A DNA stretch of 38,480 nucleotides from Microthrixaceae bacterium (GCA_044228005.1 JBGAVR010000031.1:1-38480), one strand, 5' to 3'. Positions 5,924 through 38,480 are shown, numbered from the stretch's first letter. A program made the numbers and translations. Notes: a model not told the origin generated them from the sequence alone.

Positions 5924-5926
5924 CCG

Positions 5927-6901: not shown

Positions 6902-6990
6902 AGAATCGTTGATTGATGGCGCTGGACATATGCTGATCGACCCTAGGCGCACAACCCTCGGCGAGTAACGCAGTCGGGTGGTGCTGGTCG

Positions 6991-12393: not shown

Positions 12394-12843
12394 ATGGGCA
12401 GCAACAAGGCAATGGCTCGCTCAGCGCTCGAGCGGGACCTCGAACGACATCGCGACACGCCTACCCTCGCACCGCGCAGCGGCTGGATCCGAGCCATCCG
12501 CGATGCGCTCGGCATGTCTACGAGCGAGCTCGCCAGTCGCATGGGGGTATCGAAAGCGCGGATCGGCCAAATCGAGCGGGGAGAGCGTGAACGCACTATC
12601 ACCCTCGACACACTCGAGCGCACCGCCAACGCGCTTGGGTGCCGCGTCGAGTATGTCCTGGTCCCTCGCGAGCCGCTCGACAAACTCGTCTGGGCTCAGG
12701 CCATGGCGAAAGCCAGAGCAGAGATCGGGGCAGTCGATCACACCATGGAGCTCGAGGATCAGCGCCCTGATCCCAGCTCCACCGCGACGCGCATCCAGGA
12801 GGCCGCCCGCCAGCACATCGACAAGCGCGGCCTCTGGTCATGA
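12394..12843 (+). CDS. Mobile mystery protein A (XRE-like HTH partner of Fic protein; TIGR02612-like)
   Basis: ATG at 12394 with AAGGA upstream. RSGWIRAIRDALGMSTSELASRMGVSKARIGQIERGE is an XRE-type HTH matching the 'mobile mystery protein A' family. The stop overlaps the start of the next gene (ATGA). Confidence 0.7.
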   Translation: MGSNKAMARSALERDLERHRDTPTLAPRSGWIRAIRDALGMSTSELASRMGVSKARIGQIERGERERTITLDTLERTANALGCRVEYVLVPREPLDKLVWAQAMAKARAEIGAVDHTMELEDQRPDPSSTATRIQEAARQHIDKRGLWS

Positions 12844-13430
12844 GCGATCCGCTGTTCGACACCAGCGACGGCAACACGCCCATCGATGAGGACGAGGCAC
12901 TCGGACTTAAACTCACGTGGGTGCGCTCACGAGGCGACCTCAACGAAGCCGAAGCAGCAAACATTCTCGACGCCCGTCGTGCGATCCGCTCTCCAACTCT
13001 CGGCGAGGTACTCGACGACCTCTGGTTACGCCAGCTCCATTTTCGGATGTTCGGAGATGTCTGGACCTGGGCTGGAACATACCGGGTCAGCGATCGCAAC
13101 ATCGGCATCGACTGGACCGAGGTTACCGCTGCAGTTCGGAACCTCGTTCAGGACGCACAAGCCTGGATAGGAGACGACGAGCAGCACACGTCGGTCGCCC
13201 GGTTCCATCACCGACTAGTCGCTATCCACCCCTTCCCGAACGGCAACGGCCGCCACGCCCGCGCCGCGGCCGACTACCTCTCCAACGCCCTCAAGATCGC
13301 ACTACCAACTTGGGGCGCTCTCACCTACAACGACACCGCAAACCTGCGCGCCGCCTACCTCGCGGCGCTCCGCACCGCCGACCGCGCCACGAATGACCTC
13401 GAACCCCTCGTCGGCTTCATGTGGTCATAA
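12840..13430 (+). CDS. Mobile mystery protein B, Fic/Doc family (AMPylation/phosphotransfer domain)
   Basis: Canonical Fic motif HPFPNGNGRHAR (HPFx[DE]GNGR). 196 aa. Translationally coupled to protein A. Confidence 0.85.
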   Translation: MSDPLFDTSDGNTPIDEDEALGLKLTWVRSRGDLNEAEAANILDARRAIRSPTLGEVLDDLWLRQLHFRMFGDVWTWAGTYRVSDRNIGIDWTEVTAAVRNLVQDAQAWIGDDEQHTSVARFHHRLVAIHPFPNGNGRHARAAADYLSNALKIALPTWGALTYNDTANLRAAYLAALRTADRATNDLEPLVGFMWS

Positions 13431-20797: not shown

Positions 20798-22648
20798 ATG
20801 GGGGCAACAACGACGTTGGACCGTGTAGTCATCCGATTCGCCGGGGACTCCGGCGATGGTATGCAGCTGGTCGGTGATCGATTCACTGAGCTCAGCGCGG
20901 CCTTCGGAAATGACTTGGCAACGCTGCCGAACTACCCCGCTGAGATCAGGGCGCCGGCTGGAACCCTCAACGGCGTGTCCTCGTTCCAAGTTCACATTTC
21001 TGACCACGACATTGTGACCCCAGGCGATGGCCCCAACGTTCTGGTAGCAATGAACCCCGCTGCGCTGATGGCCAATGTGGCCGACCTCAACCCGGGCTCC
21101 ACGATCATCGTGAACTCCGACGCGTTCAGCGAGCGGGACCTCGAAAAGGCGCACTGCACGACCAACCCACTAGAGGACGGTTCACTCGACGCCTTCACCG
21201 TGTATCAGGTGCCAATGACCTCCATCACTGTGGAAGCCACCAAGCCACTCGGAGTGAAGACTCGTGACGCGGAGCGTTCGAAGAACTTCTTCGCTCTTGG
21301 TCTCATCTGTTGGATGTACACCCGCCCTGTTGCCCCAGTGCTTGAGTGGGTGGAGAAGCGATTCGCGAACAAGGAGCTGGTCCGTGAGGCCAATCTCGCG
21401 GCACTCAAAGCCGGTCGCAACTTCGGAGAGACTGCGGAGCTGTTCTCCCCCTATGAGGTCAAGCCAGCGAGTCTTCCGAGCGGCACGTATCGCAACGTGA
21501 TTGGGAACACGGCAACGGCGCTTGGCCTGGTCGCAGCGGCACACAAAGCTGGATTGCCATTGCTGTATGCCTCCTATCCCATCACGCCCGCTTCGGACAT
21601 CCTTCACGAGCTGTCCAAGCTGAAGCATTTCAATGTGACCACCATGCAGGCCGAGGACGAGATCGCGGCCGCGGCAATCGCGATCGGTGGAGCCTTTGCT
21701 GGCTCACTCGCGATTACCGGTACCTCCGGGCCAGGGCTTGACCTGAAGTCTGAAGCGATTGGTCTGGCGCTCAGCCTGGAATTGCCATTGGTCATTGTGG
21801 ACGTGCAACGAGGTGGGCCATCCACGGGCTTGCCGACGAAAACGGAACAGGCCGATCTTCTTCTGGCGATGTACGGGCGACACGGCGAATCGCCGCTGCC
21901 GATTGTGGCGGCCCGGTCGCCATCGAACTGCTTTGATGCGGCCTTCGAAGCATGCAGAATCGCGTTGAAGTACCGAACGCCAGTAATCCTGCTCACTGAT
22001 GGCTATCTCGCAAACGGGGCGGAGCCGTGGCTGTTGCCAGACCCCGAAGCGCTTGCGGACATCGCCGTGCCCTTCGCTACGGAATTGAACCACACTCGCC
22101 CTGATGGCTCCCAGGAGTACTGGCCCTACCTTCGAGACCCCGAAACGCTTGCTCGCCCATGGGCAATACCTGGCACGCCGGGGCTTCAGCATCGGATTGG
22201 TGGTATCGAGAAACAGGATGGTTCTGGCAACATCAGTTATCAGCCAGCGAATCACGAGAAGATGGTGCGGCTGCGTCAGGAGAAGGTGCATCGCATCGCC
22301 AACGATACTGAGCGTGTGTGGACTGATTGCGAGGGGAGTTCAACGACCCTCGTGCTCGGATGGGGCTCCACCTGGGCCGCAATTACTGCTGGAGTTCGAC
22401 GGATCAGGATTCGCGGGCTTGAGGTTCACCAGGCGCATCTCACTCACCTCAATCCGTTCCCCGCAGACCTCGGTGAGCTCTTGAAACAGTACGAACACGT
22501 TCTGATTCCTGAGATGAACCTCGGGCAGCTCTCGAAACTGATTCGAGCTGAGTATCTTGTCGACGCCATCTCATTCACGCAGGTCAACGGGCTTCCTTTC
22601 AAGGCAGCGGACATGGAACAACGGATTATGGAGGTTCTGAACTCATGA
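20798..22648 (+). CDS. korA: 2-oxoglutarate/2-oxoacid:ferredoxin oxidoreductase subunit alpha
   Basis: N-terminal VVIRFAGDSGDGMQLVGDRFT matches KorA of actinobacteria (Rv2455c-like). 616 aa. Confidence 0.9.
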   Translation: MGATTTLDRVVIRFAGDSGDGMQLVGDRFTELSAAFGNDLATLPNYPAEIRAPAGTLNGVSSFQVHISDHDIVTPGDGPNVLVAMNPAALMANVADLNPGSTIIVNSDAFSERDLEKAHCTTNPLEDGSLDAFTVYQVPMTSITVEATKPLGVKTRDAERSKNFFALGLICWMYTRPVAPVLEWVEKRFANKELVREANLAALKAGRNFGETAELFSPYEVKPASLPSGTYRNVIGNTATALGLVAAAHKAGLPLLYASYPITPASDILHELSKLKHFNVTTMQAEDEIAAAAIAIGGAFAGSLAITGTSGPGLDLKSEAIGLALSLELPLVIVDVQRGGPSTGLPTKTEQADLLLAMYGRHGESPLPIVAARSPSNCFDAAFEACRIALKYRTPVILLTDGYLANGAEPWLLPDPEALADIAVPFATELNHTRPDGSQEYWPYLRDPETLARPWAIPGTPGLQHRIGGIEKQDGSGNISYQPANHEKMVRLRQEKVHRIANDTERVWTDCEGSSTTLVLGWGSTWAAITAGVRRIRIRGLEVHQAHLTHLNPFPADLGELLKQYEHVLIPEMNLGQLSKLIRAEYLVDAISFTQVNGLPFKAADMEQRIMEVLNS

Positions 22649-23670
22649 GCACTGCTGCTACTCCGGTTGAACTCACCCGGAAGGATTTCGAATCGGATCA
22701 AGAGGTTCGTTGGTGCCCAGGTTGTGGGGACTACGGCATCTTGGCCTCGATCCAGTTCCTCTTGCCTGAGCTTGGCGTCGAACCGCACAACACGGTCTTC
22801 ATTTCGGGCATTGGGTGTGCCGCTCGCCTGCCGTACTACATGAATACCTATGGCATGCATGGGATTCATGGACGTGCACCCGCGCTGGCGACTGGTGTGG
22901 CAATGGCGCGACCCGACCTTTCCGTGTGGGTGATCGGCGGCGACGGGGACATGTTGTCGATCGGTGGCAACCACCTGATCCACGCTCTTCGTCGAAACGT
23001 GAACCTCAACATCCTGATGTTCAACAACCAGATCTATGGCCTCACGAAGGGCCAGTACTCGCCAACTTCGGAGGTCGGCAAAGTCACGAAGTCGACTCCG
23101 TTTGGATCAGTGGACCACCCGTTCAATCCGATTTCGGTCGCCATTGGCGCGGAGGCATCGTTTGTTGCCCGAACCCATGACATGGACCGCAAGCACATGA
23201 TGGAGACCTTCCGGCGGGCCCACGCCCATCAAGGCTCCTCATTCGTTGAGGTGTTCCAAAACTGCAACGTGTTCAATGACGGGGCGTACGACCCGATCCT
23301 CAAACGCGATGTTCGGGCGGACATGCTGATCCCGCTCACTCATGGTGAACCAATTCGTTTCGGTGCGGACGGCCAACATGGTGTGGCTATCAACGAATTT
23401 GGGGAGCCATACGTCTGTGAGACCACTGAGGTTGGGGTCGCCAACCTGTTGATTCACGACGAGCATCGGCCGGATCCGACCTTGGCCTTCGCCCTCAGCC
23501 GGCTTGCGAGTTCACCGCATATGCCCACCCCGATTGGCGTGTTTCGCGATGTTGAGCGCCCCGCCTATGACGCTGAGGTTCGCGCACAGGTGAGCCACAG
23601 CATCGAACGCTCAGGCGCGGGGGATCTCAACTCGTTGATTCATTCCGGGCTTGTCTGGACCGTGGACTGA
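22645..23670 (+). CDS. korB: 2-oxoglutarate/2-oxoacid:ferredoxin oxidoreductase subunit beta (TPP-binding)
   Basis: WCPGCGDYGIL Cys motif and TPP-binding GGDGD region. ATGA overlap with korA. Confidence 0.9.
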   Translation: MSTAATPVELTRKDFESDQEVRWCPGCGDYGILASIQFLLPELGVEPHNTVFISGIGCAARLPYYMNTYGMHGIHGRAPALATGVAMARPDLSVWVIGGDGDMLSIGGNHLIHALRRNVNLNILMFNNQIYGLTKGQYSPTSEVGKVTKSTPFGSVDHPFNPISVAIGAEASFVARTHDMDRKHMMETFRRAHAHQGSSFVEVFQNCNVFNDGAYDPILKRDVRADMLIPLTHGEPIRFGADGQHGVAINEFGEPYVCETTEVGVANLLIHDEHRPDPTLAFALSRLASSPHMPTPIGVFRDVERPAYDAEVRAQVSHSIERSGAGDLNSLIHSGLVWTVD

Positions 23671-23676
23671 TAGGCC

Positions 23677-24177
23677 CTAGCTGAGGTGCGAGAGTGCTGC
23701 GTCGTAGTCAGGCTCTTGGGCGATCTCTGGAACGAGTTCTGAGTGAACCACGTTGCCGTCGCCGTCGATGACCACAACTGCGCGGGCGAGGAGTCCTTCA
23801 AGCTTGCCGTCCACCATGGTCACGCCGTAGTCCGAACCAAAAGTCGACCCTCGGAAGGTGGAACCAACTGAGACGTTCTCGATTCCTTCGGCCCCGCAGA
23901 AGCGAGCTGCAGCGAACGGCAGGTCGGCAGACACGCATACCACCTTGGTGTTGTCGAGGCCACTGGCGACCTCGTTGAAACGCCGCACGCTCGTCGCGCA
24001 CACGCCAGTGTCGATGGAGGGGAAGATGTTGAGCACCACCCGTGTGCCAGCAAGGTCAGCAGAGTTGATAGCGCTGAGATCTGATCCCACCAGTTGGAAC
24101 TGGGGTGCAGTGCTGCCAACTGCAGGCAGATTGCCTTCGGTATGAATCTCGTTTCCGCCAAGTGTGATCGACGCCAT
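23677..24177 (-). CDS. tpx: Thiol peroxidase (atypical 2-Cys peroxiredoxin Tpx)
   Basis: FPSIDTGVCATS peroxidatic Cys motif and a resolving Cys (VCVSADLPFA). 166 aa. The start ATG overlaps the stop of the upstream regulator (TAATG). Confidence 0.9.
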   Translation of the reverse strand: MASITLGGNEIHTEGNLPAVGSTAPQFQLVGSDLSAINSADLAGTRVVLNIFPSIDTGVCATSVRRFNEVASGLDNTKVVCVSADLPFAAARFCGAEGIENVSVGSTFRGSTFGSDYGVTMVDGKLEGLLARAVVVIDGDGNVVHSELVPEIAQEPDYDAALSHLS

Positions 24178-28947: not shown

Positions 28948-29670
28948 ATGGCCAAGACGCTACGTGAGTACCTGAGCGCGGGTGGTCGCCTCAACCCTGA
29001 GGTGCATCACGACCTCATTGCCGCAGTCTCCTCCTCGCTCTCGCCAGACCAGCGTGCCGACAAGGCAGCAGTCGCCCGCTACGAGCATGAAACATTCGCC
29101 GATGGCGGAGATCCTCACCCCGGCCGCTTCCTGACCGCTGGTCAGCGTGATGAGGCCGAGCAGGCCGCGGGGTTCCTTGCGGACTATCTAGAAGCTGATT
29201 CTGACCCTGAACTCGATCGCCTAGTGAACGCCGCGATTTCCGAACCCCCTGCCCTCCACCTCGAAGCGAAGGATCCACCACATCACATGAACACTGACAC
29301 GCCAGCTACTGGGCACTACCGAGGAGTTGCGTCAGCGCTCCGCGAACCAACGAAAGCGCTTCGAACTGCGAGTCCTGAAGTGTGGGCAGGGTTCGGGGCC
29401 CTCCACCAGGCCGCGGTCGCCGAAGGTGTGCTCTCCTCAAAGGTGAAGGAGCTGATGGCGCTCGCGATTGCAGTGGTAAAGCAGTGCGATGGCTGCATCT
29501 CCTACCATGCGCGAGCGGCAGTGGCGCGTGGTGCCACGGCGGAGGAATGCGCTGAAGCGCTGGGAGTGGCGCTGCTGATGGATGGCGGGACAGCTTCGGT
29601 GTACGGCCCGCGAGCCTTCGCTGCATTCAACGAATTCGCCGGCACCGACCAAGCGGCCAGTTCGACCTAG
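28948..29670 (+). CDS. Carboxymuconolactone decarboxylase/AhpD-like family protein with N-terminal extension
   Basis: C-terminal KELMALAIAVVKQCDGCISYHARAA has the AhpD-type CxxCxxH motif. GGGAG RBS upstream of ATG 28948. An internal ATG at 29287 would give a canonical ~125-aa CMD protein. Confidence 0.7.
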   Translation: MAKTLREYLSAGGRLNPEVHHDLIAAVSSSLSPDQRADKAAVARYEHETFADGGDPHPGRFLTAGQRDEAEQAAGFLADYLEADSDPELDRLVNAAISEPPALHLEAKDPPHHMNTDTPATGHYRGVASALREPTKALRTASPEVWAGFGALHQAAVAEGVLSSKVKELMALAIAVVKQCDGCISYHARAAVARGATAEECAEALGVALLMDGGTASVYGPRAFAAFNEFAGTDQAASST

Positions 29671-29753
29671 CTCAACCGGTGTATGGAGCCGGCTGATTCG
29701 GTCTGGCTCGATCTCTCGTTCAACCTACTGGCCCTCGGAGCGTAAGGACTGGG

Positions 29754-30647
29754 CTAATGGCTGGTGCAGTGTTGGCGGTCCGCCGCAGTTTGCACGCGTT
29801 CGACGGTCACATCCACTTCCATTTCCGTTGGTCCGCCAACTGAGGTGACCACTCCCTTGAGTGGCACTACGTCGGAATAGTCACGACCCCACGCGATCGT
29901 GATGTGCGAGGCTGGCTCGACCAGGCCATTGGTGGGGTCGAGATCAATCCACCGGCCATCCGCATCCTGAACTGATGCCCACGCATGGGAGGCATCGGCG
30001 CCAGCGAGCACCGGTTCTCCGGCGGGCGGCACATTCTCGACGTACCCACTGACGTAACGTCCGGCGAGGCCGAGCGACCGGACGCAATCAAGCAGCACAT
30101 GAGCGAAGTCTTGGCAGACACCGCTCCGAGTAGCCAGCACCTCGCTGACAGGGGTAGCGATGGTTGTCCAGCCGGGCCGGTAGGAGAAATCCAGAAAGAT
30201 GCGCCGGTTGAGATCCGTGAGACTCTCGAGGAGCGGCCGGCCGGGGGCGAAGGATGGGAGGGCGTATTCAGCCGCTTCCGCGGAGTGCGGGATGAGTGGA
30301 CTCTCCAGCGTGAAGTCACGGTCGAGGGGAGAGGCTGCCGTGTGGGCCAACGCTTGTTCCCAACTCGCTGCTGGGTTGGTGAGCGCTCGGCTCCTCAGCA
30401 GCTCGACCTCACTGGTCGCAACCACCTCGAAGACTTGGTGTGGCTCTTCGATACTGAAGTAGGTGCAACGGTTGCCATAGAGGTCGATGTGGTCCGCCCG
30501 GTCCGCAGGTGTCGGCGAGATCTCCAACCAGTGGTTCATCACGCGCTGTCCTGGTGTGGGCCTCGGCGTTAAGTGGGCCTGGTGGATGCTCATCGTTACT
30601 GGGCTGGGAGCGTGGTAGACCGTCGAATGGCGAACTCGATACATCAT
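29754..30647 (-). CDS. Transglutaminase-like cysteine protease superfamily protein (Rv2409c/Rv2569c-like)
   Basis: Bacterial transglutaminase N-domain followed by a core with catalytic Cys (SGVCQDFAHV), His and Asp. ATGA overlap with the upstream gene. Confidence 0.85.
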   Translation of the reverse strand: MMYRVRHSTVYHAPSPVTMSIHQAHLTPRPTPGQRVMNHWLEISPTPADRADHIDLYGNRCTYFSIEEPHQVFEVVATSEVELLRSRALTNPAASWEQALAHTAASPLDRDFTLESPLIPHSAEAAEYALPSFAPGRPLLESLTDLNRRIFLDFSYRPGWTTIATPVSEVLATRSGVCQDFAHVLLDCVRSLGLAGRYVSGYVENVPPAGEPVLAGADASHAWASVQDADGRWIDLDPTNGLVEPASHITIAWGRDYSDVVPLKGVVTSVGGPTEMEVDVTVERVQTAADRQHCTSH

Positions 30648-33172
30648 CCATGCTCCCCGCGGACGCCCGGCCGGGCAGCGAGATCGTCGATCGATTCCCC
30701 AGAAACTGGTGCGGACGACCCACCGAAGATGGTGGTCGGACGAACATGAACGAAGTATCTCAGGTCGATCTCAGTGGCGATCGCAGCGAGAGTCTCGCGT
30801 GCACTGTCGGTCAGGATTTCAAGAGCTTCCCTTCGTCCAAGCGCTCCCGCTGCAGCGAGCGAGTCTGGAGAGGAGGCCTCAATCAGGGAACTGAGCCCAC
30901 GAGTCTTGTCCAGCAGGTCGCGCGTGAGCGGCGAAGCGCCGGGTAACGATTCGATATTGATGGCAAGTGCTTCGAGTTGGGAGCGCACCGAACGAGGGTT
31001 GGAGCTATCGGTAACCAACAGGTCGATCAGCAGCGCCGCGTCAATATCGGAGCGGTATCGGCGCCGATAGGCTCCCAAACCATCCCAGGTGACAAGAATC
31101 GTCTCGAAGAGTGGCGCTTCCATGTCCCGGGGGAGGTCATCGACAAGCACGGTCGCGATGGTGGTGATCACCAGTGAGGCAACCTCGACTCGACGGCCGA
31201 TATCGAGAAACTGCCAGCCAGGGTCTCGCACCATTGAGTCGTTCACCACGCCAGAGAGCGCCAAGAGGGGGCCAGCGCAGGAAGCGGCGATCTCGCCCGC
31301 CTCCTCAGGCCCCGCGGTTGCCAGGCTCAGAAGGTAATCACTGACCTGGCCGAGGAATCGCCAGGAATCTGAGGAGAACAGTTCCCGAACAGATGCTGCG
31401 TTGTGTAACAAGAAGTGAAGGGAGGTCGACAGGCTTCGTTCTCTGCTTCGATCCACCAGGGCGGCATTGAGGAGCTCAGCGGTCGTTGGAGGATCCGGAG
31501 GTGCTGGCGTCGGAAGCCAACCAAGGCCAGCCATCGAGTTGAGTAATCGGTCGACATTCCATGTCCAGGGCCAGGGGTGATCCTGTCGAAGATCGTGGCG
31601 GGTTTCGTTGAGAAGCCCAACTGCGCCGACGAGGCGGATCATGCAGCGACTTCGCTCCAAGTTCCTGCCGATCCAAAACATTGACTCAGCAGCCCTGCTC
31701 GCGAGTGAACTCCGCAGATCAATCGGGGCAAGGGTGGTGCCGAGTGCCAACGTCGGGTGCTCCAGCGCGCTGTGGGATTGGGTGATCCAGGTGTCCTTGC
31801 TGAGGCTGAATGTCCCGAAGGTGATTGCCTCTGGTTGCGCGCCCGTCAGCGTGAGGCCGCCCTCCAAGCAATGGTATCCATCGTGGTCCCGCACCAGGAA
31901 GGCCCGGGAGATGGTGGGACGCCCGACAACAGTGCCGGTTGGGGTGCCGGTGCCAGCGGATGCGCTGTCGAAACTCGGCGTCGGGGCAATGTCTACCTCC
32001 TGCTGACCGACGAAGAGGTGGGGCTCAGCGGTGATGCGGCGTGCCAACTCTTCGCGCTGCTCAGCGCACAGGAGGCGACCAAACAACGTGTGGCGACCAT
32101 TGATTCGATGGTGCGAGCGGATGAGCAGCGAGTCAAGGTGCGCGAGAACATGAGAGCGAGAGGAAGACTCGCCGCACCACCAGGTGGGAGGGCTTTGGAT
32201 TCGGGGGTCTTCTCCGAGGAGAGTCCGAGTCAAACTCGGGATGTAGGGCAACAGGGCAGCGCATTCGCCGAGACCAGAACCGAGTGGGTTGGCTACCGCC
32301 ACGTTGCCTCGTCGGCACGCCTCGACGAGGCCCGCCACACCAGCTGTAGAGTCGAACCCCAACTCCAAGGGGTCGCAATCGGGCGAGGCAACCAGTCGCA
32401 AAATCACGTGTACGGGTTCGAGTCCTGCCACTGACTTCAGCCACACCTTGGCTCCACGAACGGTCAGGTCGCCCGGCTCCACGAGCGTGAACCCCAACTT
32501 GCGGGCGAGGAAGGCGTGTTCTGAGTGGGCGCTGACACTTGTTCCTGGCGTCATCATGACGATTCGCGGTTGGGCTACTTGAGGAGGGGCGAGCGCTCCC
32601 AACGCGGTTCTGCAGATGCCAAGCCAGTTCTCAAGTGGCGCCACTCGATGTTGCTCCATGGCCTCGGGATTCACCCGGGCCATCACCTCCCGGTTTTGCA
32701 GAGCGTGGCCGATTCCCCATGGCATCTGGGTGCGATCTGCCAGAACGAGAAACTCACCATCGATGCTGCGAGCCACGTCTGACGAGTACAACACAAGGTT
32801 GCTCGACCCGGGTGAGCCAATGCCGACGCAACACCGCAGATATTCCTCGTGAGCGAGGATTGCGAGGGTGGGGAGGTGCCCTCCGGCGAGAAGCCGTTGA
32901 GGCCCGAAGAGGTCTTCCAACAACAGTCGAAGCACCGTTGCTCGTTGTTCCAATGCCCGAGATACGCTCTCCCACTCGAGCGCATTGATGCTCAGCGGAA
33001 GTGGATCGAGCTCCCAGTTTGCACCGTCTCGATCCTGGGGGATTGGGTGGTTGAAGATCGACCCAGTGCCCATCTGAGCAAGTGCTCGATGGATCTGGGC
33101 GGCGTTCGTCTGCAACGCTGCAGCAGAGCGCTCGGCGGGCGCCATGAGGTCTGACCCGACGCCAGAACTCAC
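30644..33172 (-). CDS. Fused circularly permuted ATP-grasp (CP_ATPgrasp type 1) + alpha-E domain protein (Rv2567-like)
   Basis: 842 aa. The N-terminal ~480 aa are collinear with the stand-alone CP-ATP-grasp encoded upstream. The C-terminal ~320 aa begin with the alpha-E signature ESMFWIGRNLERSRCMIRLV. Confidence 0.85.
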   Translation of the reverse strand: MSSGVGSDLMAPAERSAAALQTNAAQIHRALAQMGTGSIFNHPIPQDRDGANWELDPLPLSINALEWESVSRALEQRATVLRLLLEDLFGPQRLLAGGHLPTLAILAHEEYLRCCVGIGSPGSSNLVLYSSDVARSIDGEFLVLADRTQMPWGIGHALQNREVMARVNPEAMEQHRVAPLENWLGICRTALGALAPPQVAQPRIVMMTPGTSVSAHSEHAFLARKLGFTLVEPGDLTVRGAKVWLKSVAGLEPVHVILRLVASPDCDPLELGFDSTAGVAGLVEACRRGNVAVANPLGSGLGECAALLPYIPSLTRTLLGEDPRIQSPPTWWCGESSSRSHVLAHLDSLLIRSHHRINGRHTLFGRLLCAEQREELARRITAEPHLFVGQQEVDIAPTPSFDSASAGTGTPTGTVVGRPTISRAFLVRDHDGYHCLEGGLTLTGAQPEAITFGTFSLSKDTWITQSHSALEHPTLALGTTLAPIDLRSSLASRAAESMFWIGRNLERSRCMIRLVGAVGLLNETRHDLRQDHPWPWTWNVDRLLNSMAGLGWLPTPAPPDPPTTAELLNAALVDRSRERSLSTSLHFLLHNAASVRELFSSDSWRFLGQVSDYLLSLATAGPEEAGEIAASCAGPLLALSGVVNDSMVRDPGWQFLDIGRRVEVASLVITTIATVLVDDLPRDMEAPLFETILVTWDGLGAYRRRYRSDIDAALLIDLLVTDSSNPRSVRSQLEALAINIESLPGASPLTRDLLDKTRGLSSLIEASSPDSLAAAGALGRREALEILTDSARETLAAIATEIDLRYFVHVRPTTIFGGSSAPVSGESIDDLAARPGVRGEHG

Positions 33173-34158
33173 ACGACGACTCGACCCGCCGGGTGGAGGG
33201 TCCGGGTTGTTTCTGGCGTGAAGAACGTATCGTTCAACGCGTTGTGAAGTGACAGGATGCCGAGTTGCATGTGATCGACCCAGCTATGAAGCGCCTCGGC
33301 CTCGAGGCCTCCCGAACGGGTGCTCAGCATGTCACGAAGGTCAGCTGCATGTTCTCGCAGATGTGGACGATGGGGAAGGCCTCCCAGGATTTGATCGACG
33401 CGTGCTAGGCAATGCTGCACTGCTCGGGGGAAGTCCTGGTCCTCCACGAGGAACTCGACAACCGATTCGCCAGCGATTGAGCCCGAAGTTCGCCGGGCGT
33501 ACATGTGCTGTGCGCCAAGGCTGCGCAGCACACCGAGCCACCGGACGTCCTCATAGGGGCTTCGGTCTGCGGGGGGAAGTGCTCCTTTGGCTCCTTCGTC
33601 AAGCAGGCTGGTGGCGCGAACGTCGAGCACTCTGGTGGTCATATCGGCTCGTTCCACATTTCGTCCGAGTTCGTAGAAGGAGAACGCGTCGTCCCGACTG
33701 ACGGTTGAGGCGAGAATCCCCATGATCTGCTGGCCTGCGGCGATGATGTCGCTGCACAGCTCAAGACGGGCAGTCCTGTGGGCACATGTCCCGGCGCTCG
33801 TCGCGACACTCGTGTGCAGCAGGTTCACACACTCCCAGAGCGAGGAGGGCATCAACTGGCGGGTGACTCGCAAGTTCTCACGCGCCGAGGCGACTGTTCG
33901 GATGACAGAAGTTGGGTTGCCGATATCTGCCATGAGGTGGTTGACGATGCTCATCTCATCCAACGAGGAGTACCGAAGCAGATACGTCTCATCGGCGCCC
34001 GTAATGGCCAACAGCCCGGCCCAGTCGGAATCCACGTCAATGGGCAGGTCCACGAGCAACTTGGTGTGCTCGCGGATGATTCGTGACACTGCTTCGGCAC
34101 GTTCGAGGTGGCGCCCAAGCCAATAGAGGTTCGCTGCGGTTCGTGACAACATCATCAC
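33169..34158 (-). CDS. Alpha-E domain protein (DUF403; Rv2410c-like)
   Basis: N-terminal MLSRTAANLYWLGRHLERAEAVSRII is the hallmark alpha-E start. ATGA overlaps on both sides. Confidence 0.85.
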   Translation of the reverse strand: MMMLSRTAANLYWLGRHLERAEAVSRIIREHTKLLVDLPIDVDSDWAGLLAITGADETYLLRYSSLDEMSIVNHLMADIGNPTSVIRTVASARENLRVTRQLMPSSLWECVNLLHTSVATSAGTCAHRTARLELCSDIIAAGQQIMGILASTVSRDDAFSFYELGRNVERADMTTRVLDVRATSLLDEGAKGALPPADRSPYEDVRWLGVLRSLGAQHMYARRTSGSIAGESVVEFLVEDQDFPRAVQHCLARVDQILGGLPHRPHLREHAADLRDMLSTRSGGLEAEALHSWVDHMQLGILSLHNALNDTFFTPETTRTLHPAGRVVV

Positions 34159-35729
34159 ACTGCTCCTTGTCTGTTTGCTTGCTGGTCTGGTGTTTGCTGG
34201 TCTGGTGTTTGCCGGTCTGCGGTTTGCTGGTCTGTTGTTTGCTGGCCTGGTGCTGGCGAATTCGCTGCCAGTTGTTCGGTCACAGCGGCTGCTGGTTTCG
34301 CGTCTGTGTCCACCACCCAGGTGTCCTTCGAACCCCCGCCCTGGGAAGAGTTGACGACGAGTGAGCCCTCCTGGCGGGCCACGCGAGTTAATCCGCCGCA
34401 GGAGACGTAGCTCTCAGCGCCGAGAATCGTGAACGGTCGAAGATCGACGTGCCGGGGCGCGAGTCGACCCTCGCAGATCGTCGGGACGACTGACAGGTTG
34501 ACCACAGGTTGGGCTACATATCCGCGGGGGTCGTTTCTAATGTCCTTGGCGCAGCGATCGAGTTCGTCCCGTGTCGCCATCGGGCCGATGACGATTCCGT
34601 ATCCGCCCGACTCGTTGGCCGGTTTGACGACCAACTCCGACAGATGATCGAGTACGAACGCTCGATCCTCCACCTCGCCGCATTGGTAGGTGGGCACGTT
34701 CGCCAAGATCGGCTCCTGGTCGAGGTAGTACCGAATCATGTCGGGGACATAGGAGTAGACCGCTTTGTCGTCAGCTACCCCAGTGCCTGGGGCGTTCGCT
34801 ATGGCGACATTTCCGGCCTTCCAGGCACGCAAAATTCCGGGCACTCCCAAGGCGCTGTCCTTCCGGAAGACCTCCGGATCCAGGAAGGTGTCGTCTACTC
34901 GTCGGTACAGGACGTCAACCCGAACGGGACCGCTAATCGTGCGCAGAAACAGGCGGTCCTCATCGACGAAGAGGTCGCGACCCTCTACCAACTCGACTCC
35001 CATTTGGTGAGCCAGGAAGCAGTGCTCGAAATAGGCAGAGTTGTGAATGCCGGGCGTGAGCACGGCAATCACTGCCGCGTCGCCCAAGGGGCTCAGGGAG
35101 GCAAGGATCCTGCGAAGTCGCTCCGGGTAGGCATCGACAGGGAGGATGGATTGATGTGCGAACAGATCTGGAAAGACACGCTTCGTAATCTCACGGTTTT
35201 CCAGCATGTAGGAAACACCTGAGGGGACTCGAAGGTTGTCTTCGAGCACGAAGATGGTGCCGTCGCTGCCCCGCACCAAGTCGCTTCCGCAGATGTGTGC
35301 CCAGACGCCATGAGCGGGCTCTGCGCCTCGGCATTCTGGCCGAAACCCGGGCGAATGATCGATGAGCTGCCGGGGGATGTGGCCATCGTGGAAGATCTGT
35401 TGCGCGCCGTAGACGTCGGCGATGAACCTATTGAGGGCAGTAAGTCGCTGCACGAGACCCGCCTCGACTCGGTCCCATTCGCGCCGACTAATGACTCGGG
35501 GAACGATGTCGAGAGGCCATGCCCGATCGATTCCATCGCCTTCGGAGTAGACCGTGAAGGTGATGCCCGCCGCCTCGATACTGAGGTTTGCGGCATGCTG
35601 TCGTTCTTCAATCTCCTCGATACCAAGACGCTCAAGGTGACTGACCAGTGCTGCTGCAGCATCGCGTGGCTTGCCAGCCTCGTCGATGAGTTCATCGAAG
35701 GACGGGGGTTGGTAGTCGCCGAAGAGCAC
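34155..35729 (-). CDS. Circularly permuted ATP-grasp type 1 protein (DUF404/DUF407; Rv2411c-like) with DQQTP-repeat C-tail
   Basis: 524 aa. GTG start at 35729 with a purine-rich tract immediately upstream. The C-terminal DQQT(P/A)D repeats are encoded by a 15-bp tandem repeat (34174-34252). Confidence 0.85.
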   Translation of the reverse strand: MLFGDYQPPSFDELIDEAGKPRDAAAALVSHLERLGIEEIEERQHAANLSIEAAGITFTVYSEGDGIDRAWPLDIVPRVISRREWDRVEAGLVQRLTALNRFIADVYGAQQIFHDGHIPRQLIDHSPGFRPECRGAEPAHGVWAHICGSDLVRGSDGTIFVLEDNLRVPSGVSYMLENREITKRVFPDLFAHQSILPVDAYPERLRRILASLSPLGDAAVIAVLTPGIHNSAYFEHCFLAHQMGVELVEGRDLFVDEDRLFLRTISGPVRVDVLYRRVDDTFLDPEVFRKDSALGVPGILRAWKAGNVAIANAPGTGVADDKAVYSYVPDMIRYYLDQEPILANVPTYQCGEVEDRAFVLDHLSELVVKPANESGGYGIVIGPMATRDELDRCAKDIRNDPRGYVAQPVVNLSVVPTICEGRLAPRHVDLRPFTILGAESYVSCGGLTRVARQEGSLVVNSSQGGGSKDTWVVDTDAKPAAAVTEQLAANSPAPGQQTTDQQTADRQTPDQQTPDQQANRQGAV

Positions 35730-35813
35730 CTCTCTTTCCTATAGGTGCTCTGTGAATCATCTGTGTGCGCTTCGTTTCAGGGGCGTGAACACAGTGTCCG
35801 GTTGGGCGAATGG

Positions 35814-36587
35814 CTATGACGACACTGCGAGAGTCGACGCAAAGATCTGCCAGGCGAGCGCCGACTTCGCTACAAAGCTGAGCACGATGTAGATCCTCTC
35901 GCCGTGGAGATAGTTGGCCCACTTACCCTTGGCTCGGTACTGCTTGTACTGCACGAGGGCGAAGCAGTTGAACAGCAGGAACAGCGAGACGACGATTCCG
36001 TAGACGAAACCTGGTGCGGTTGATTCAGGCGGGCCCTTGGGCGAGATGAGTTGGAAGACGAAGAGGAGCCACGGGACCGACCCAGCAATGCAGCCGAAGA
36101 TGAAGGGGAGCCATTCGCCATCGCCCGGTGTTGTGAACTTCTCCTGAAGCCAACCGAACAGAATCATGGAGACGTTGATCCCGAAGATCGCGGCGAGCGC
36201 AGTGATCTCGCTGATTCCGTTGAGTTGGGCGATCACGAAGACCATGATCGAGGAACTCAGCGAGTACTCGACCCAGCGGAAGATGTTGCGACTCTGCAGT
36301 AGCGAGGCCTGATACCTCGGAAAGAACTTCGGTGAAGCGACACTGAAGTGAAACAGCGCGGACAACCCGAGAAACAGGGCGATCGAGATTGCTACCCGAC
36401 TGTCGAACAGCGTCACGGGAGCGGAAAACGTCGATCCAGGCGGCCCAGTCTGGTAGGTGGCGGTCACTGGCAACGAGAAGTCGTTGGCTAGAACCAGCAC
36501 GGCGATCAGGGAGACCGCGTGTAGCGCTCCGGCGAAGAGGTTGAGAGTGCGAAGCGGTGCCACGCCCTCGGAGTGGGTGGAAGTCAT
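35814..36587 (-). CDS. Heliorhodopsin (7-TM retinal-binding photoreceptor, inverted topology)
   Basis: 257 aa with 7 predicted TM helices. Conserved blocks match my recollection of heliorhodopsin 48C12: LANDFSLPVTATYQTGPPG, FRWVEYSLSSSIM (counterion Glu), VSMILFGWLQEKF, GFVYGIVVS, LVQYKQYRAKGKWANYLHGE, and SFVAKSALAWQIFA carrying the Schiff-base Lys. The ATG overlaps the GT1 stop (ATGA), with AAGAAGGG about 10 nt upstream. Confidence 0.85.
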   Translation of the reverse strand: MTSTHSEGVAPLRTLNLFAGALHAVSLIAVLVLANDFSLPVTATYQTGPPGSTFSAPVTLFDSRVAISIALFLGLSALFHFSVASPKFFPRYQASLLQSRNIFRWVEYSLSSSIMVFVIAQLNGISEITALAAIFGINVSMILFGWLQEKFTTPGDGEWLPFIFGCIAGSVPWLLFVFQLISPKGPPESTAPGFVYGIVVSLFLLFNCFALVQYKQYRAKGKWANYLHGERIYIVLSFVAKSALAWQIFASTLAVSS

Positions 36588-37930
36588 GGTTGTAGGACCC
36601 TTCTTGTCAGAATTTCGCGACTGTCTGACGGGAGTTGAGGCTTCCGTCCATGTTGGAGGATCGCCGTGATGGCCCTCGTTGGTCCCCCGTTGGAGGTGAT
36701 CGAATCGGCCAACTTGCGAGACCGCTCGTTGGACTCCGGACCGAGCAGGTCTGCCACGGCGGTTACTAGCTCCTCACTGGTCACGGTGTTTGGAGCCAGC
36801 GCTATGCCGAGGCCAGTGCGTTCGATCGTAGCAGCGGCAGCGAACTGGTCGGTCGAGAACGGAAGCAGGATCATTGGCACCCCAGCGGCGGCTGCCTCGG
36901 TGACACTTCCGTTTCCCCCGTGGTGAATGATCACGTCGGTGTGGTTGAGGATTGCCACCTGAGGAAGATGTCGAACGATGACGGCTCCCGGAGGCGGCTC
37001 GCCGAGGGAGCCAGGTGTCGAGCTGCCATGAGCGAGGGCGAGGCGCCAATTCCCGATTCGAGCGGCGGAGATAGCGGTGGCGAGAACGTCGCCGCGGGCG
37101 CTCAGAAACGACCCCAACGCGACGGTGACTCGAGGCCCAGATCCCGAGGGGAGGGTGAAGTCCCCCAACGACTCCGCACGGGGCAGCGCACCAATGAACA
37201 CCGCCTCTGGAGGCAGTGTGCGGGAGGAGTCGTGCAGTGCTTCGGGATACACGTAGATGGTCGGATACCCAGGAGTCGACGTGAGATCGCCGATGGGGCC
37301 TCGCTGCGGTGCCCGGCGAAGCAGGAACTCGTTGCTCAGTTCGCGCAGGTTCTCGACCGCGAGCTCGCAACGCTGCCGCACTGCCTGGATGTCAGTCTCA
37401 GACGGTCTCGTCGCAGATGGCCAAGCAGGAGGTAGCCCATACACCTCTCCGGGCGCCGGCAGGGCGCTCGGGTGACCGAGTACTACGGTCGCGGCCTCAA
37501 CTCCGAGGGCATGCAACGCGAGACGTGCACCGAAGGCGACGTGGTCGACCAGCACGCGGTCTGGCTGAACTGCCTCGATGATCACCGCCAATTCATCGAA
37601 TACTCGATCGGGCTCGTGGAGCAGGTCGTGGCCGCGGGCATCAGCCTGGTAGCGCAGGGTTGCCAGTGGACCCGACCGTGTGGCGTCGAAGAACGCTTGG
37701 AGGTGCTCATCCTCTCCCTTGGGTTGATCGCCAACTTCAATGACGCCGCCGTTACTGCCAGCGCCGAGCCGAAGCTCAATCCACGCAAGTCCCGCTGCCT
37801 CGACGGCCGACCGGGTTGCGCTGCCGGTGGCGATGACGACCTCACCGCGGGTACGGCTCCATTCGCTGCCAATCTGCAGGAGGGGCAACGTATGGGACAA
37901 GTAGTCAGGGCTGATGACTAGGAGTTTCAT
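36584..37930 (-). CDS. GT1 family glycosyltransferase (UDP-glycosyltransferase/MGT-like)
   Basis: 448 aa. The C-terminal donor-binding signature HHGGNGSVTEAAAAGVPMILLPFSTDQ is typical of GT1 UGT/MGT enzymes. Confidence 0.8.
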   Translation of the reverse strand: MKLLVISPDYLSHTLPLLQIGSEWSRTRGEVVIATGSATRSAVEAAGLAWIELRLGAGSNGGVIEVGDQPKGEDEHLQAFFDATRSGPLATLRYQADARGHDLLHEPDRVFDELAVIIEAVQPDRVLVDHVAFGARLALHALGVEAATVVLGHPSALPAPGEVYGLPPAWPSATRPSETDIQAVRQRCELAVENLRELSNEFLLRRAPQRGPIGDLTSTPGYPTIYVYPEALHDSSRTLPPEAVFIGALPRAESLGDFTLPSGSGPRVTVALGSFLSARGDVLATAISAARIGNWRLALAHGSSTPGSLGEPPPGAVIVRHLPQVAILNHTDVIIHHGGNGSVTEAAAAGVPMILLPFSTDQFAAAATIERTGLGIALAPNTVTSEELVTAVADLLGPESNERSRKLADSITSNGGPTRAITAILQHGRKPQLPSDSREILTRRVLQP

Positions 37931-38480
37931 CGGAGCGGAAGCCCGACACGGCTTGGTAGAGGTCGAGCGCTGAAACGCTCATCGGTGTGTACAGGCGGCA
38001 CCAGCGCTCGGTACACGCCGCCAAGTCGTTGGGCCATCTTCTCGATACTCAGTTCTGTCCGAACCTTGTCTCTCGCTCGCTGAGCGCGGCCCGGAATGCC
38101 CTCCAGCTCCAGCGCCGCGACAATGGCCGCGCGTAGCGAGGAGATGGAGAGCGTGTCGCAGAGGATTCCTATGTCGCTGTGGCTGATGTAGGTGCGTGGC
38201 CCTCCACGCTCGGGGGCGACTACCGCTGCTCCGGCGGCAAGCGCTTCCACGATGGCCAACCCGAACTCCTCCTTATCGCTCGCGCAGACGTAGACGCCGC
38301 CATGGCAAACCGTCTCTGCCATCAGGTCGCTGACCACCGAAGGGGGAAGGTGGCCAGTAAGTGTGACGAGGCCAGGTTCTGCATCGGCAGCGGCGAGCTG
38401 AATACGCTCGATGGTTGACTGCTCATCGGGAGACGGATTTTCCAAGTCGCCGCCAATGATCACCACATTGACCCTGTCGG
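37927..38480 (-). CDS. GT4 family glycosyltransferase, C-terminal part (gene continues beyond window end)
   Basis: EEFGLAIVEALAAGAAVVAP is the GT4 EX7E motif. The reading frame stays open to the window edge. Its stop overlaps the GT1 start by 4 nt. Confidence 0.7.
   Translation of the reverse strand, partial: DRVNVVIIGGDLENPSPDEQSTIERIQLAAADAEPGLVTLTGHLPPSVVSDLMAETVCHGGVYVCASDKEEFGLAIVEALAAGAAVVAPERGGPRTYISHSDIGILCDTLSISSLRAAIVAALELEGIPGRAQRARDKVRTELSIEKMAQRLGGVYRALVPPVHTDERFSARPLPSRVGLPLR

What the first reader, a model, noticed from the sequence alone, without database searches (positions are those of the whole stretch)
29754..38480. Heliorhodopsin embedded in a co-directional array with two glycosyltransferases and a CP-ATP-grasp/alpha-E/transglutaminase amidoligase-peptidase system
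Seven consecutive minus-strand genes run GT4 -> GT1 -> heliorhodopsin -> CP-ATP-grasp -> alpha-E -> fused CP-ATP-grasp/alpha-E -> transglutaminase-like protease. The junctions GT4/GT1, GT1/heliorhodopsin, CP-ATP-grasp/alpha-E, alpha-E/fusion and fusion/TGase are all 4-bp ATGA/GTGA overlaps. The only gap is 84 bp between the heliorhodopsin stop and the CP-ATP-grasp start. It contains a purine-rich RBS for the ATP-grasp gene and no GC-hairpin plus U-tract terminator, so read-through is likely. Heliorhodopsin function is still largely unknown; proposed roles include binding glutamine synthetase or photolyase. The ATP-grasp/alpha-E/TGase trio is a predicted peptide-ligation/processing system (Iyer-Aravind amidoligase class) whose product is also unknown. 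A physical and possibly functional link between a light sensor and this ligase/peptidase machinery, or a glycosylated product, has not to my knowledge been described.
Basis: partly seen in the sequence, partly recalled or inferred. Interest (0 to 1): 0.85.

Follow-up and report, generated by a model that had tools for sequence, protein, structure and literature searches.

The report
Heliorhodopsin wedged between two unrelated operons
The seven-gene array is real, but it is a one-species juxtaposition of three separately inherited units: a glycosyltransferase pair, a lone heliorhodopsin, and a well-known ATP-grasp/alpha-E/transglutaminase module that keeps its own upstream control region, so it gives no good evidence for a light-controlled ligase system.

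Summary
Observation confirmed. Seven minus-strand genes sit at the stated coordinates with the stated Pfam families. Five junctions are ATGA/GTGA overlaps, and an 84-bp gap has no terminator-like site.

Interpretation not supported. The array was seen in only one species, an Acidimicrobiaceae MAG recovered from several metagenomes.
- None of 82 heliorhodopsin (HeR) loci from other genomes (60-80% identity, about 1 Mb of flanks) holds a homologue of any of the six neighbours. The closest HeR with usable context (80%) also lacks them.
- None of 80 metagenomic loci with the ATP-grasp gene has a HeR or either glycosyltransferase (GT).
- The five closest relatives of the ATP-grasp gene (74-83%) start at a divergent 112-134-bp intergenic region. 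Four carry the same four-gene order where the contig allows; one lineage has only the first two genes.
- GT4-GT1 is a conserved two-gene unit that ends at a convergent gene in three other lineages.

The 84-bp gap is homologous to the relatives' upstream region. A GAAC-N16-CGTAAC-like block sits exactly 70 nt before the start codon in all six.

Best reading: HeR is appended to the GT pair, and the module keeps its native leader or promoter. Read-through is possible but untested. Components are ordinary members of known families. Interest is low. A species-specific HeR partnership with the GTs is not excluded.

The parts
37927..38480 (-). Unit 1, gene 1. C-terminal 183 codons of a large GT4 glycosyltransferase (625 aa in full); the N-terminal part lies beyond the window end.
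   Evidence: Pfam Glycos_transf_1 1.7e-13. The full gene is seen in L163/L164 at 5926-7803. A 68-73% identical GT4 always precedes the GT1 in L176, L178 and L179-L181.
36584..37930 (-). Unit 1, gene 2. GT1-family (UDPGT / EryCIII-like, MGT-like) glycosyltransferase. Overlaps GT4 by ATGA.
   Evidence: Pfam. NCBIfam MGT subfamily 107 bits, below the cut-off of 260. In relatives at 67-71% identity it is the last gene of the pair and is followed by a convergent gene.
35814..36587 (-). Unit 2. Canonical heliorhodopsin of 257 aa; its ATG overlaps the GT1 stop (ATGA).
   Evidence: PF18761 5.2e-90. NCBIfam HeR 309.5 bits. E = 3.5e-103 to HeR 48C12, PDB 6SU3. H22, H79, E106 and K240 are invariant among 17 homologues.
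35730..35813 (-). 84-bp spacer. Its proximal 70 nt (35730-35799) are the native upstream region of the ATP-grasp module. It includes a GGAC-N16-TGAAAC block at 35774-35799, an AGGAAAGAGAG ribosome-binding site, and a 9-bp hairpin that covers the GTG start.
   Evidence: Aligns with the divergent promoter regions of five relatives. It matches 19 of 29 relative-invariant columns, against 12.3 +/- 2.4 in shuffles (1 of 200 reach it). The block is unique in each locus and starts 70 nt before the start codon (about 71 in L173) in all six. No terminator-like site. Hairpin.
34155..35729 (-). Unit 3, gene 1. Circularly permuted ATP-grasp amidoligase, 524 aa.
   Evidence: CP_ATPgrasp_2 1.9e-160. A 100% identical protein is recorded for an Acidimicrobiaceae MAG.
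33169..34158 (-). Unit 3, gene 2. Alpha-E protein, 329 aa.
   Evidence: Alpha-E 1.3e-70. An Alpha-E gene follows the ATP-grasp gene in 79 of 80 metagenomic loci.
30644..33172 (-). Unit 3, gene 3. Fused CP-ATP-grasp + Alpha-E protein, 842 aa.
   Evidence: Pfam. Same position in L169-L173. A fused paralogue lies within 10 kb in about a third of the distant loci.
29754..30647 (-). Unit 3, gene 4. Transglutaminase-like cysteine peptidase, 297 aa when the overlapping ATG is used.
   Evidence: Bact_transglu_N matches residues 3-82 and Transglut_core 141-238. Relatives encode 307-308 aa with the same 4-bp overlap. Public gene calls of 261 aa start too late.

Best explanation
The array is a lineage-specific juxtaposition of three independently inherited units in one Acidimicrobiaceae species.

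1. **GT4-GT1.** This is a conserved two-gene glycosyltransferase operon of unknown substrate. In relatives it ends at a convergent gene.
2. **HeR.** This is a canonical retinal-binding heliorhodopsin. Its genomic context differs in almost every lineage. Here it sits on the 3' end of the GT pair with an ATGA overlap. It is therefore most likely transcribed from the promoter upstream of GT4 and translationally coupled to GT1 (inferred).
3. **The four-gene module.** CP-ATP-grasp, Alpha-E, the fused CP-ATP-grasp/Alpha-E and the TGase form the widespread amidoligase/peptidase module predicted to make or attach and trim a peptide or amide-linked product (Iyer et al. 2009, as cited in PMC6376114 and PMC5666114). 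It keeps its own 70-nt upstream region inside the 84-bp gap. That region contains a block with fixed 16-nt spacing, resembling an ECF-sigma -35/-10 pair. The module is therefore most likely regulated on its own.

Because no terminator is present, some read-through from HeR may add to module transcription. Nothing indicates that HeR acts on the ATP-grasp machinery.

**Shown:** gene identities, overlaps, non-conservation of the adjacency, and homology of the gap to the relatives' upstream regions.
**Inferred:** the transcription units, the promoter identity, and the absence of a functional link.
For: **HeR-centred.**
- 80 GTDB species-representative loci (60-77% identity) plus L001/L002 hold about 1.0 Mb of flank. 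72 have at least 1 kb downstream and 68 at least 1 kb upstream. tblastn with all six neighbours at E <= 1e-5 gives 0 hits.
- Pfam scans of 106 immediate neighbours give ADH_zinc (11), Peptidase_S51 (8), UbiA (7), Abhydrolase_2 (7), DPRP photolyase-related (4) and Gln-synt (3). No GT, CP_ATPgrasp, Alpha-E or Transglut_core family has two or more members.
- The nearest HeR with context (80%, L182) has 301 bp with no called gene upstream and convergent regulator genes downstream.

**Module-centred.**
- 80 metagenome loci show Alpha-E adjacent in 79, and HeR, GT1 and GT4 in 0. 58 of these have at least 1 kb upstream.
- The closest relatives (74-83% identity, L169-L175) have a divergent upstream gene 112-134 bp away. 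The four-gene order holds in L169-L172; L173 runs off its contig within gene 3; L174/L175 carry only the first two genes.

**GT-centred.** Three lineages (67-71%) keep GT4-GT1 followed by a convergent gene, with no HeR.

**The gap.** 19 of 29 relative-invariant columns match (1 of 200 shuffles and 3 of 200 random window segments reach this). The block G[AGC]AC-N16-[CT]G[TA]AAC occurs once per locus and starts 70 nt before the start codon (about 71 in L173) in all six.

**Other.** All contigs with the arrangement encode 100% identical proteins, so they represent one species. Two published surveys of HeR neighbours do not list GTs or ATP-grasp systems (PMC8612252; PMC11109279).
Against: - There is no terminator-like element between HeR and the ATP-grasp gene, and all seven genes are co-directional. 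A single long transcript is therefore possible.
- In the window the conserved block departs from the relatives at its putative core positions (GGAC for GAAC; TGAAAC for CGTAAC). L174 also has CGAAAC. The native promoter may be weakened here and read-through may matter more.
- HeRs are reported to regulate proteins encoded by lineage-specific operon neighbours (PMC11109279). Lack of conservation does not by itself exclude a local function.
- Only the 80 best of 535 GTDB HeR loci and 80 of 226 metagenomic module loci were inspected, and many contigs are short.
Confidence: 0.75

Rival explanations
1. HeR and the CP-ATP-grasp/Alpha-E/TGase module form one operon and one functional system: light sensed by HeR modulates the amidoligase/peptidase, by analogy with HeR binding glutamine synthetase, another ATP-dependent amide-forming enzyme.
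For: The genes are co-directional and the 84-bp gap has no terminator-like site. HeRs regulate neighbour-encoded enzymes in other species (PMC11109279), and GS genes were next to 3 of 82 HeRs here. Anbu-type operons with the same ATP-grasp/Alpha-E/TGase trio respond to nitrogen limitation (PMC5666114), the same physiological theme as GS.
Against: The adjacency was found in one species only: 0 of 82 HeR loci, 0 of 80 module loci and 0 of 5 close relatives. The module starts at a divergent promoter region in relatives, and that region is retained in the gap. HeR is separated from the module by a gap, whereas it overlaps GT1.
Confidence: 0.05
2. HeR is functionally tied to its true operon partners, the GT4-GT1 pair, in this species only. 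It might work as a light-dependent regulator of membrane-associated glycosyl transfer. Alternatively, the GT1 might glycosylate a xanthophyll that serves HeR as a second chromophore.
For: The ATGA overlap between GT1 and HeR implies co-transcription and translational coupling. IMG labels many GT1 homologues 'zeaxanthin glucosyltransferase'. Two FAD amine-oxidase genes with weak CrtI/HpnE-family similarity lie just upstream of GT4. A preprint proposes a carotenoid-binding site in most HeRs (bioRxiv 10.1101/2025.11.27.691015).
Against: GT4-GT1 occurs without HeR in three other lineages, and HeR occurs without GTs in 82 loci. The IMG names are automatic. GT1 is below the NCBIfam MGT cut-off and at most 32% identical to anything in the plasmid records, and the listed hits are annotated only as generic glycosyltransferases. 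The oxidases score far below every curated cut-off. No crtB, crtE or crtY genes, nor a carotenoid cleavage oxygenase (Blh/Brp-type) gene, were seen in the window or in L163. The preprint argues the carotenoid is exogenous.
Confidence: 0.12
3. The native promoter of the module has decayed in this lineage. The module is now expressed mainly by read-through from the GT4-GT1-HeR transcript. This would be an operon fusion by accident, with no functional meaning.
For: The window differs from the relatives at the core of both halves of the conserved block: GGAC versus GAAC, and TGAAAC versus CGTAAC. There is no terminator.
Against: 19 of 29 invariant positions and the exact spacing and position are retained. 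L174 also carries CGAAAC with a divergent upstream gene, so that variant can still serve as the only upstream region.
Confidence: 0.08

Closest known systems
Heliorhodopsin 48C12 (PDB 6SU3/6SU4; freshwater actinobacterial fosmid)
   Same: The full-length alignment has E = 3.5e-103. The Schiff-base lysine (K240 here, K241 in 48C12), the counterion glutamate (E106/E107) and the two histidines (H22, H79) are conserved. The length is about the same (257 aa).
   Different: It is a different species (Acidimicrobiaceae, about 60% GC) with a different gene neighbourhood. No spectroscopy or structure exists for this protein.
HeR-partner operons: glutamine synthetase/NAD+ synthetase, photolyase, ABC transporter OmrDE, and the other groups listed in PMC11109279 and PMC8612252
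   Same: HeR sits in a co-directional cluster and overlaps its upstream gene. This is the criterion those studies used for candidate partners.
   Different: Those partners recur in many genomes; this study re-found GS in 3 and photolyase-related DPRP in 4 of 82 loci. The GT and ATP-grasp neighbours recur in none. No interaction data exist.
CP-ATP-grasp / Alpha-E / transglutaminase amidoligase-peptidase system (Iyer et al. 2009; the 'Anbu operon' of proteobacteria and cyanobacteria). From my own knowledge, the Mycobacterium tuberculosis clusters Rv2411c-Rv2409c and Rv2567-Rv2569c belong to it.
   Same: The domain set and gene order are the same: ATP-grasp, then Alpha-E, then TGase (PMC6376114). 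A second, fused ATP-grasp/Alpha-E paralogue with its own TGase partner is common.
   Different: There is no Anbu (proteasome-beta-like) gene in the array. Both paralogous sets are packed into one four-gene unit with a single TGase. The product and substrates are unknown here, as they are everywhere else.
GT4-GT1 gene pair of Acidimicrobiia/Actinomycetota (uncharacterised; GT1 is MGT/CrtX-like)
   Same: The pair is 67-73% identical to those in L176, L178 and L179-L181, with the same order and a tight junction.
   Different: Only in this species is a HeR appended to the 3' end. In the others the pair is followed by a convergent gene.

Membership tests
Heliorhodopsin (PF18761 / NCBIfam NF038020) | Full-length match to the family profile above the curated cut-off | tested here: met
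   Pfam 301.5 bits against 26.7, covering model positions 1-242 of 242. NCBIfam equivalog 309.5 bits against 100.
Heliorhodopsin (PF18761 / NCBIfam NF038020) | Retinal Schiff-base lysine in TM7 and a single glutamate counterion in TM3 | tested here: met
   In the alignment to 48C12, VAKSAL (K240) aligns with K241 and WVEYSL (E106) aligns with E107. Both are invariant in 17 homologues.
Heliorhodopsin (PF18761 / NCBIfam NF038020) | Inverted membrane topology, retinal binding and a long photocycle | not testable with these tools
   Needs expression and spectroscopy.
CP-ATP-grasp / Alpha-E / TGase amidoligase system (Iyer et al. 2009) | Circularly permuted ATP-grasp gene immediately followed by an Alpha-E gene | tested here: met
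   CP_ATPgrasp_2 1.9e-160 and Alpha-E 1.3e-70 with a GTGA overlap. The same adjacency holds in 79 of 80 related loci.
CP-ATP-grasp / Alpha-E / TGase amidoligase system (Iyer et al. 2009) | Associated transglutaminase-like cysteine peptidase (Bact_transglu_N + Transglut_core) | tested here: met
   Both domains are above their cut-offs. The same gene closes the unit in L169-L172.
Anbu operon (the subtype with a proteasome-beta-like Anbu subunit) | An Anbu gene in the same operon | tested here: not met
   The unit ends at the TGase gene. The next gene, 28948-29670, is on the opposite strand and is a CMD-family protein. None of the seven proteins matched a proteasome-type family.
Recurrent HeR-partner operon (in the sense of PMC8612252 and PMC11109279) | The same neighbour family found next to HeR in several independent genomes | tested here: not met
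   0 of 82 loci by tblastn. No GT, CP_ATPgrasp, Alpha-E or TGase family has two or more members among 106 immediate neighbours. It is absent in the 80% identical relative L182.
Macrolide-type (MGT) / zeaxanthin (CrtX) glucosyltransferases | Score above the NCBIfam MGT subfamily cut-off, or clear orthology to a characterised CrtX | tested here: not met
   TIGR01426 MGT scores 107 bits against a cut-off of 260. tblastn against plasmid records gives at most 32% identity, and the listed hits are annotated only as generic glycosyltransferases. Only GT1-superfamily membership (UDPGT, EryCIII-like_C) is met.

The most novel reading that the evidence does not exclude
In this one Acidimicrobiaceae species, the heliorhodopsin has been recruited as a light-dependent regulator of its new operon neighbours. 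The most plausible target is the membrane-associated GT4/GT1 pair, possibly making a glycolipid or xanthophyll glycoside. A less plausible target is the downstream ATP-grasp amidoligase. This would be one more example of HeR's partner promiscuity, with a class of partner not described so far.
Probability: 0.1. Interest if true: 0.6.

Novelty: new member of a known kind. Interest (0 to 1): 0.2.

Why it matters
If the link were real, it would give heliorhodopsin a new class of effector and give the long-uncharacterised ATP-grasp/Alpha-E/TGase system a physiological cue. The comparative evidence says otherwise, so the value is mostly cautionary. A tight, co-directional, overlap-rich array in a high-GC actinobacterium can be assembled from unrelated units. 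HeR neighbourhoods need recurrence tests before any function is inferred from them. Two small by-products may be useful. One is a conserved, possibly ECF-sigma-type upstream block that could help find the regulator of the amidoligase module in Acidimicrobiales. The other is a conserved GT4-GT1 pair of unknown substrate.

Tried and rejected
1. **Carotenoid-cluster idea.** The GT1 might have been CrtX and the upstream amine oxidases CrtI-like. The NCBIfam hits are far below the cut-offs (HpnE 74 against 283; crtI_fam 48 against 238; MGT 107 against 260). There is no close match in plasmid records. No crt genes appear in the GT4-GT1 loci of relatives. I kept this only as a low-probability rival.
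2. **Conserved RNA structure in the gap.** Rfam finds nothing in the whole window. RNAalifold gives only 4-8 weak pairs with almost no covariation. The fold is no more stable than shuffles. Rejected.
3. **Terminator or sigma-70 promoter scan of 29000-38480.** No promoter-like site was found, and the three terminator-like sites all lie inside genes, fewer than in shuffles. Uninformative for an actinobacterium.
4. **Mobile-element signature around HeR.** There are no flanking repeats of note and no tRNA genes. GC content is similar to the neighbours; GC3 is somewhat higher (0.78 against 0.67-0.71). No evidence of recent insertion.
5. **The conserved upstream block in distant module loci.** It is absent in all 80, so it is specific to the close Acidimicrobiales relatives.
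6. **Iyer et al. 2009 (PMC3268129).** The paper could not be read. It is cited only through PMC6376114 and PMC5666114.

Full report
**1. What is in the sequence**

The minus strand carries seven genes:
- the 3' part of a GT4 glycosyltransferase (37927-38480, cut by the window end);
- a GT1-family glycosyltransferase (36584-37930);
- a heliorhodopsin (35814-36587; PF18761 5.2e-90; NCBIfam HeR 309.5 bits against a cut-off of 100);
- a circularly permuted ATP-grasp protein (34155-35729);
- an Alpha-E protein (33169-34158);
- a fused CP-ATP-grasp/Alpha-E protein (30644-33172);
- a transglutaminase-like peptidase (29754-30647).

The five junctions read ATGA, ATGA, GTGA, GTGA and ATGA. The only spacer is 84 bp (35730-35813). 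It ends in AGGAAAGAGAG just before the GTG start. It has no terminator-like hairpin and no unusually stable fold.

The HeR is canonical. It aligns with HeR 48C12 (PDB 6SU3) at E = 3.5e-103. The Schiff-base lysine, the glutamate counterion and both conserved histidines are in place.

**2. Where the window comes from**

The ATP-grasp protein is 100% identical to a protein that NCBI records for an Acidimicrobiaceae MAG. At least six contigs from different metagenomes, including wastewater, carry the same arrangement with 100% identical proteins. These contigs therefore represent one species. They also extend past the window end. The GT4 is 625 aa in full. It is preceded by a 357-aa FAD amine-oxidase-family gene. 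Further upstream lie divergent genes for an NmrA/DUF2867 protein and a second amine-oxidase-family protein.

**3. Is the neighbourhood recurrent? Starting from HeR**

A scan of one genome per GTDB species returned 535 HeR loci. The 80 most similar (60-77% identity) come from Acidimicrobiia, Nanopelagicales and other Actinomycetota, and also many Saccharimonadia. I fetched these with up to 10 kb of flank on each side and added two 75% identical loci.
- Together they hold about 1.0 Mb of flanking DNA. 72 have at least 1 kb downstream and 68 at least 1 kb upstream.
- tblastn with the six neighbour proteins at E <= 1e-5 found nothing in any of the 82 loci.
- A Pfam scan of the 106 immediate neighbours of at least 120 aa recovered the published partners (glutamine synthetase in 3, photolyase-related DPRP in 4), so the approach can detect real associations. 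No glycosyltransferase, CP_ATPgrasp, Alpha-E or Transglut_core family had two or more members.
- The closest HeR with usable context (80% identity, L182) has 301 bp with no called gene upstream and convergent regulator genes downstream.

Two published surveys list the frequent HeR neighbours: glutaredoxin/GSHPx, GS, NAD+ synthetase, photolyase, MerR, TerC, ABC transporter, SDR, alpha/beta hydrolase, DUF2177, DUF2238 and histidine kinases. Neither mentions GTs or ATP-grasp systems (PMC8612252; PMC11109279).

**4. Starting from the ATP-grasp module**

Eighty metagenomic loci with 59-65% identical ATP-grasp genes have an Alpha-E gene next door in 79 cases. About a third have a fused paralogue plus a TGase within 10 kb. 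None has a HeR, GT1 or GT4.

The closest relatives are more telling. They are 74-83% identical Acidimicrobiales (L169-L175).
- L169-L172 keep the same four-gene order with the same tight junctions. L173 runs off its contig within the third gene. L174/L175 have only the first two genes.
- In every one the upstream gene is divergent and lies 112-134 bp away.
- In those genomes the unit must therefore carry its own promoter.

**5. Starting from the GTs**

GT1 homologues of 67-71% identity in three further lineages are always preceded by the large GT4 (627-663 aa; 68-73% identical over the part visible in the window). They are followed by a gene on the opposite strand. No HeR is present. GT4-GT1 is thus an autonomous two-gene unit.

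**6. The 84-bp gap is the module's own upstream region**

- The gap aligns with the relatives' divergent intergenic regions.
- The window matches 19 of the 29 columns that are invariant among the five relatives. Shuffled versions give 12.3 +/- 2.4 (1 of 200 reach 19), and random window segments give 12.5 +/- 2.6 (3 of 200).
- A block of the form G[AGC]AC-N16-[CT]G[TA]AAC occurs exactly once in each locus. It starts 70 nt before the start codon (about 71 in L173) in all six. A pattern this loose is expected about 0.7 times in a shuffled 38-kb window, so the fixed position is the informative point.
- The strict 16-nt spacing and the GAAC/CGTAAC halves resemble ECF-sigma promoters. That resemblance is my own knowledge, not something I tested.
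- In L169 the divergent neighbour is an ECF sigma factor gene.
- Only 14 nt separate the HeR stop codon from the start of this block.
- The window's version differs at core positions (GGAC and TGAAAC). I cannot say whether the element is fully active here. L174 shares the CGAAAC variant while still having a divergent upstream gene.

**7. Interpretation**

The seven-gene run consists of three units with separate evolutionary histories. Their co-orientation needs only two coincidences, about 1 in 4.
- HeR is most likely transcribed with GT4-GT1 and translationally coupled to GT1.
- The amidoligase module keeps its native leader or promoter, and may additionally receive read-through.

The module itself is the known CP-ATP-grasp/Alpha-E/TGase system. 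It is predicted to ligate and process a peptide or amide-linked product, and remains uncharacterised apart from ATP turnover by one ATP-grasp protein (PMC6376114; PMC5666114). This copy lacks an Anbu subunit.

**8. What is not excluded**

HeRs are thought to pair with different partners in different lineages, and at least one such lineage-specific pair has been shown experimentally (PMC11109279). A species-specific partnership therefore remains possible at roughly 10%. The overlapping GT genes are more likely partners than the ATP-grasp module.

The attractive variant is that GT1 is a carotenoid glucosyltransferase feeding a HeR antenna. It rests only on automatic IMG names and a modelling preprint. 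It is weakened by sub-threshold family scores, by the lack of any close match in the plasmid records, and by the absence of carotenoid genes in all the loci inspected.

**9. Limits**

- Only the best 80 of 535 genome loci and 80 of 226 metagenome loci were inspected.
- Many contigs are short.
- Gene calls in the bulk neighbour scan were a simple longest-ORF heuristic.
- The promoter assignment is by resemblance only.
- No expression data were available.

**10. Verdict**

The components are ordinary new members of known families. The proposed system is most likely a chance juxtaposition. Interest is low (0.2).

Noticed in passing
window 35774-35799 (minus strand); L169 9931-9956, L170 9910-9935, L171 7931-7956, L173 7936-7961, L174 7931-7956: A conserved block GAAC-N16-CGTAAC (GGAC...TGAAAC in the window) starts 70 nt upstream of the CP-ATP-grasp start codon (about 71 in L173) in six Acidimicrobiales loci. 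It looks like an ECF-sigma -35/-10 pair, and in L169 the divergent neighbour is an ECF sigma factor gene. The left part also forms a GAAC-N5-GTTC palindrome, so an operator is an alternative reading.
   Followed up: partly
window 35721-35749 (minus strand): A perfect 9-bp inverted repeat, AGAGCACCT...AGGTGCTCT, places the GTG start codon of the ATP-grasp gene in a stem and the ribosome-binding site in the loop. Relatives can form a shifted CACG...CGTG stem, but covariation is not convincing.
   Followed up: partly
L004-L029 (many loci): Heliorhodopsins of Saccharimonadia/Saccharibacteria (CPR, often epibionts of Actinomycetota) are 68-73% identical to this Acidimicrobiaceae HeR. That is as close as, or closer than, most actinobacterial HeRs, and it suggests horizontal transfer between the two groups.
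   Followed up: no
L163/L164 1695-5769 (beyond the window end); L178 1-294; L179 9654-10697: FAD amine-oxidase-family genes (about 350-420 aa; weak HpnE/CrtI-family similarity, below the cut-offs) recur near the GT4-GT1 pair in three lineages. In L163 they occur together with an NmrA/DUF2867 protein. This may be a conserved pathway of unknown product.
   Followed up: partly
window 29754-30647: Public gene calls for the TGase-like gene (261 aa, L163 15191-15976) start too late. The Bact_transglu_N domain begins at residue 3 of the 297-aa ORF, and that ORF's ATG overlaps the upstream stop, as in relatives (307-308 aa).
   Followed up: yes
L169 17889-19040, L171 16412-17545, L174 13069-14220: In the close relatives the module is followed by APH, a redoxin and then a phage-type integrase. 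In the window's genome about 6 kb of other genes (CMD, MaoC hydratase, FA hydroxylase, GntR, DUF6855, HTH/WCX) separate the TGase gene from the redoxin gene (23677-24177). Both flanks of the module have been rearranged.
   Followed up: no
HeR loci (2 of 106 neighbours): Two HeR genes have a Pup-ligase-family gene as an immediate neighbour. Eight have a Peptidase_S51 gene and seven a UbiA prenyltransferase gene. The latter two seem to be recurrent partners in Nanopelagicales-type loci.
   Followed up: no
window 6991-10014, 12840-13430, 15610-17781, 20798-23670: Other content of the window: a 1007-aa AAA_11/AAA_12 (Upf1-like) helicase, a Fic-domain protein, a 723-aa SPFH/Band-7 protein, and a two-subunit 2-oxoacid:ferredoxin oxidoreductase with a 4-bp overlap. 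None of this relates to the finding.
   Followed up: no
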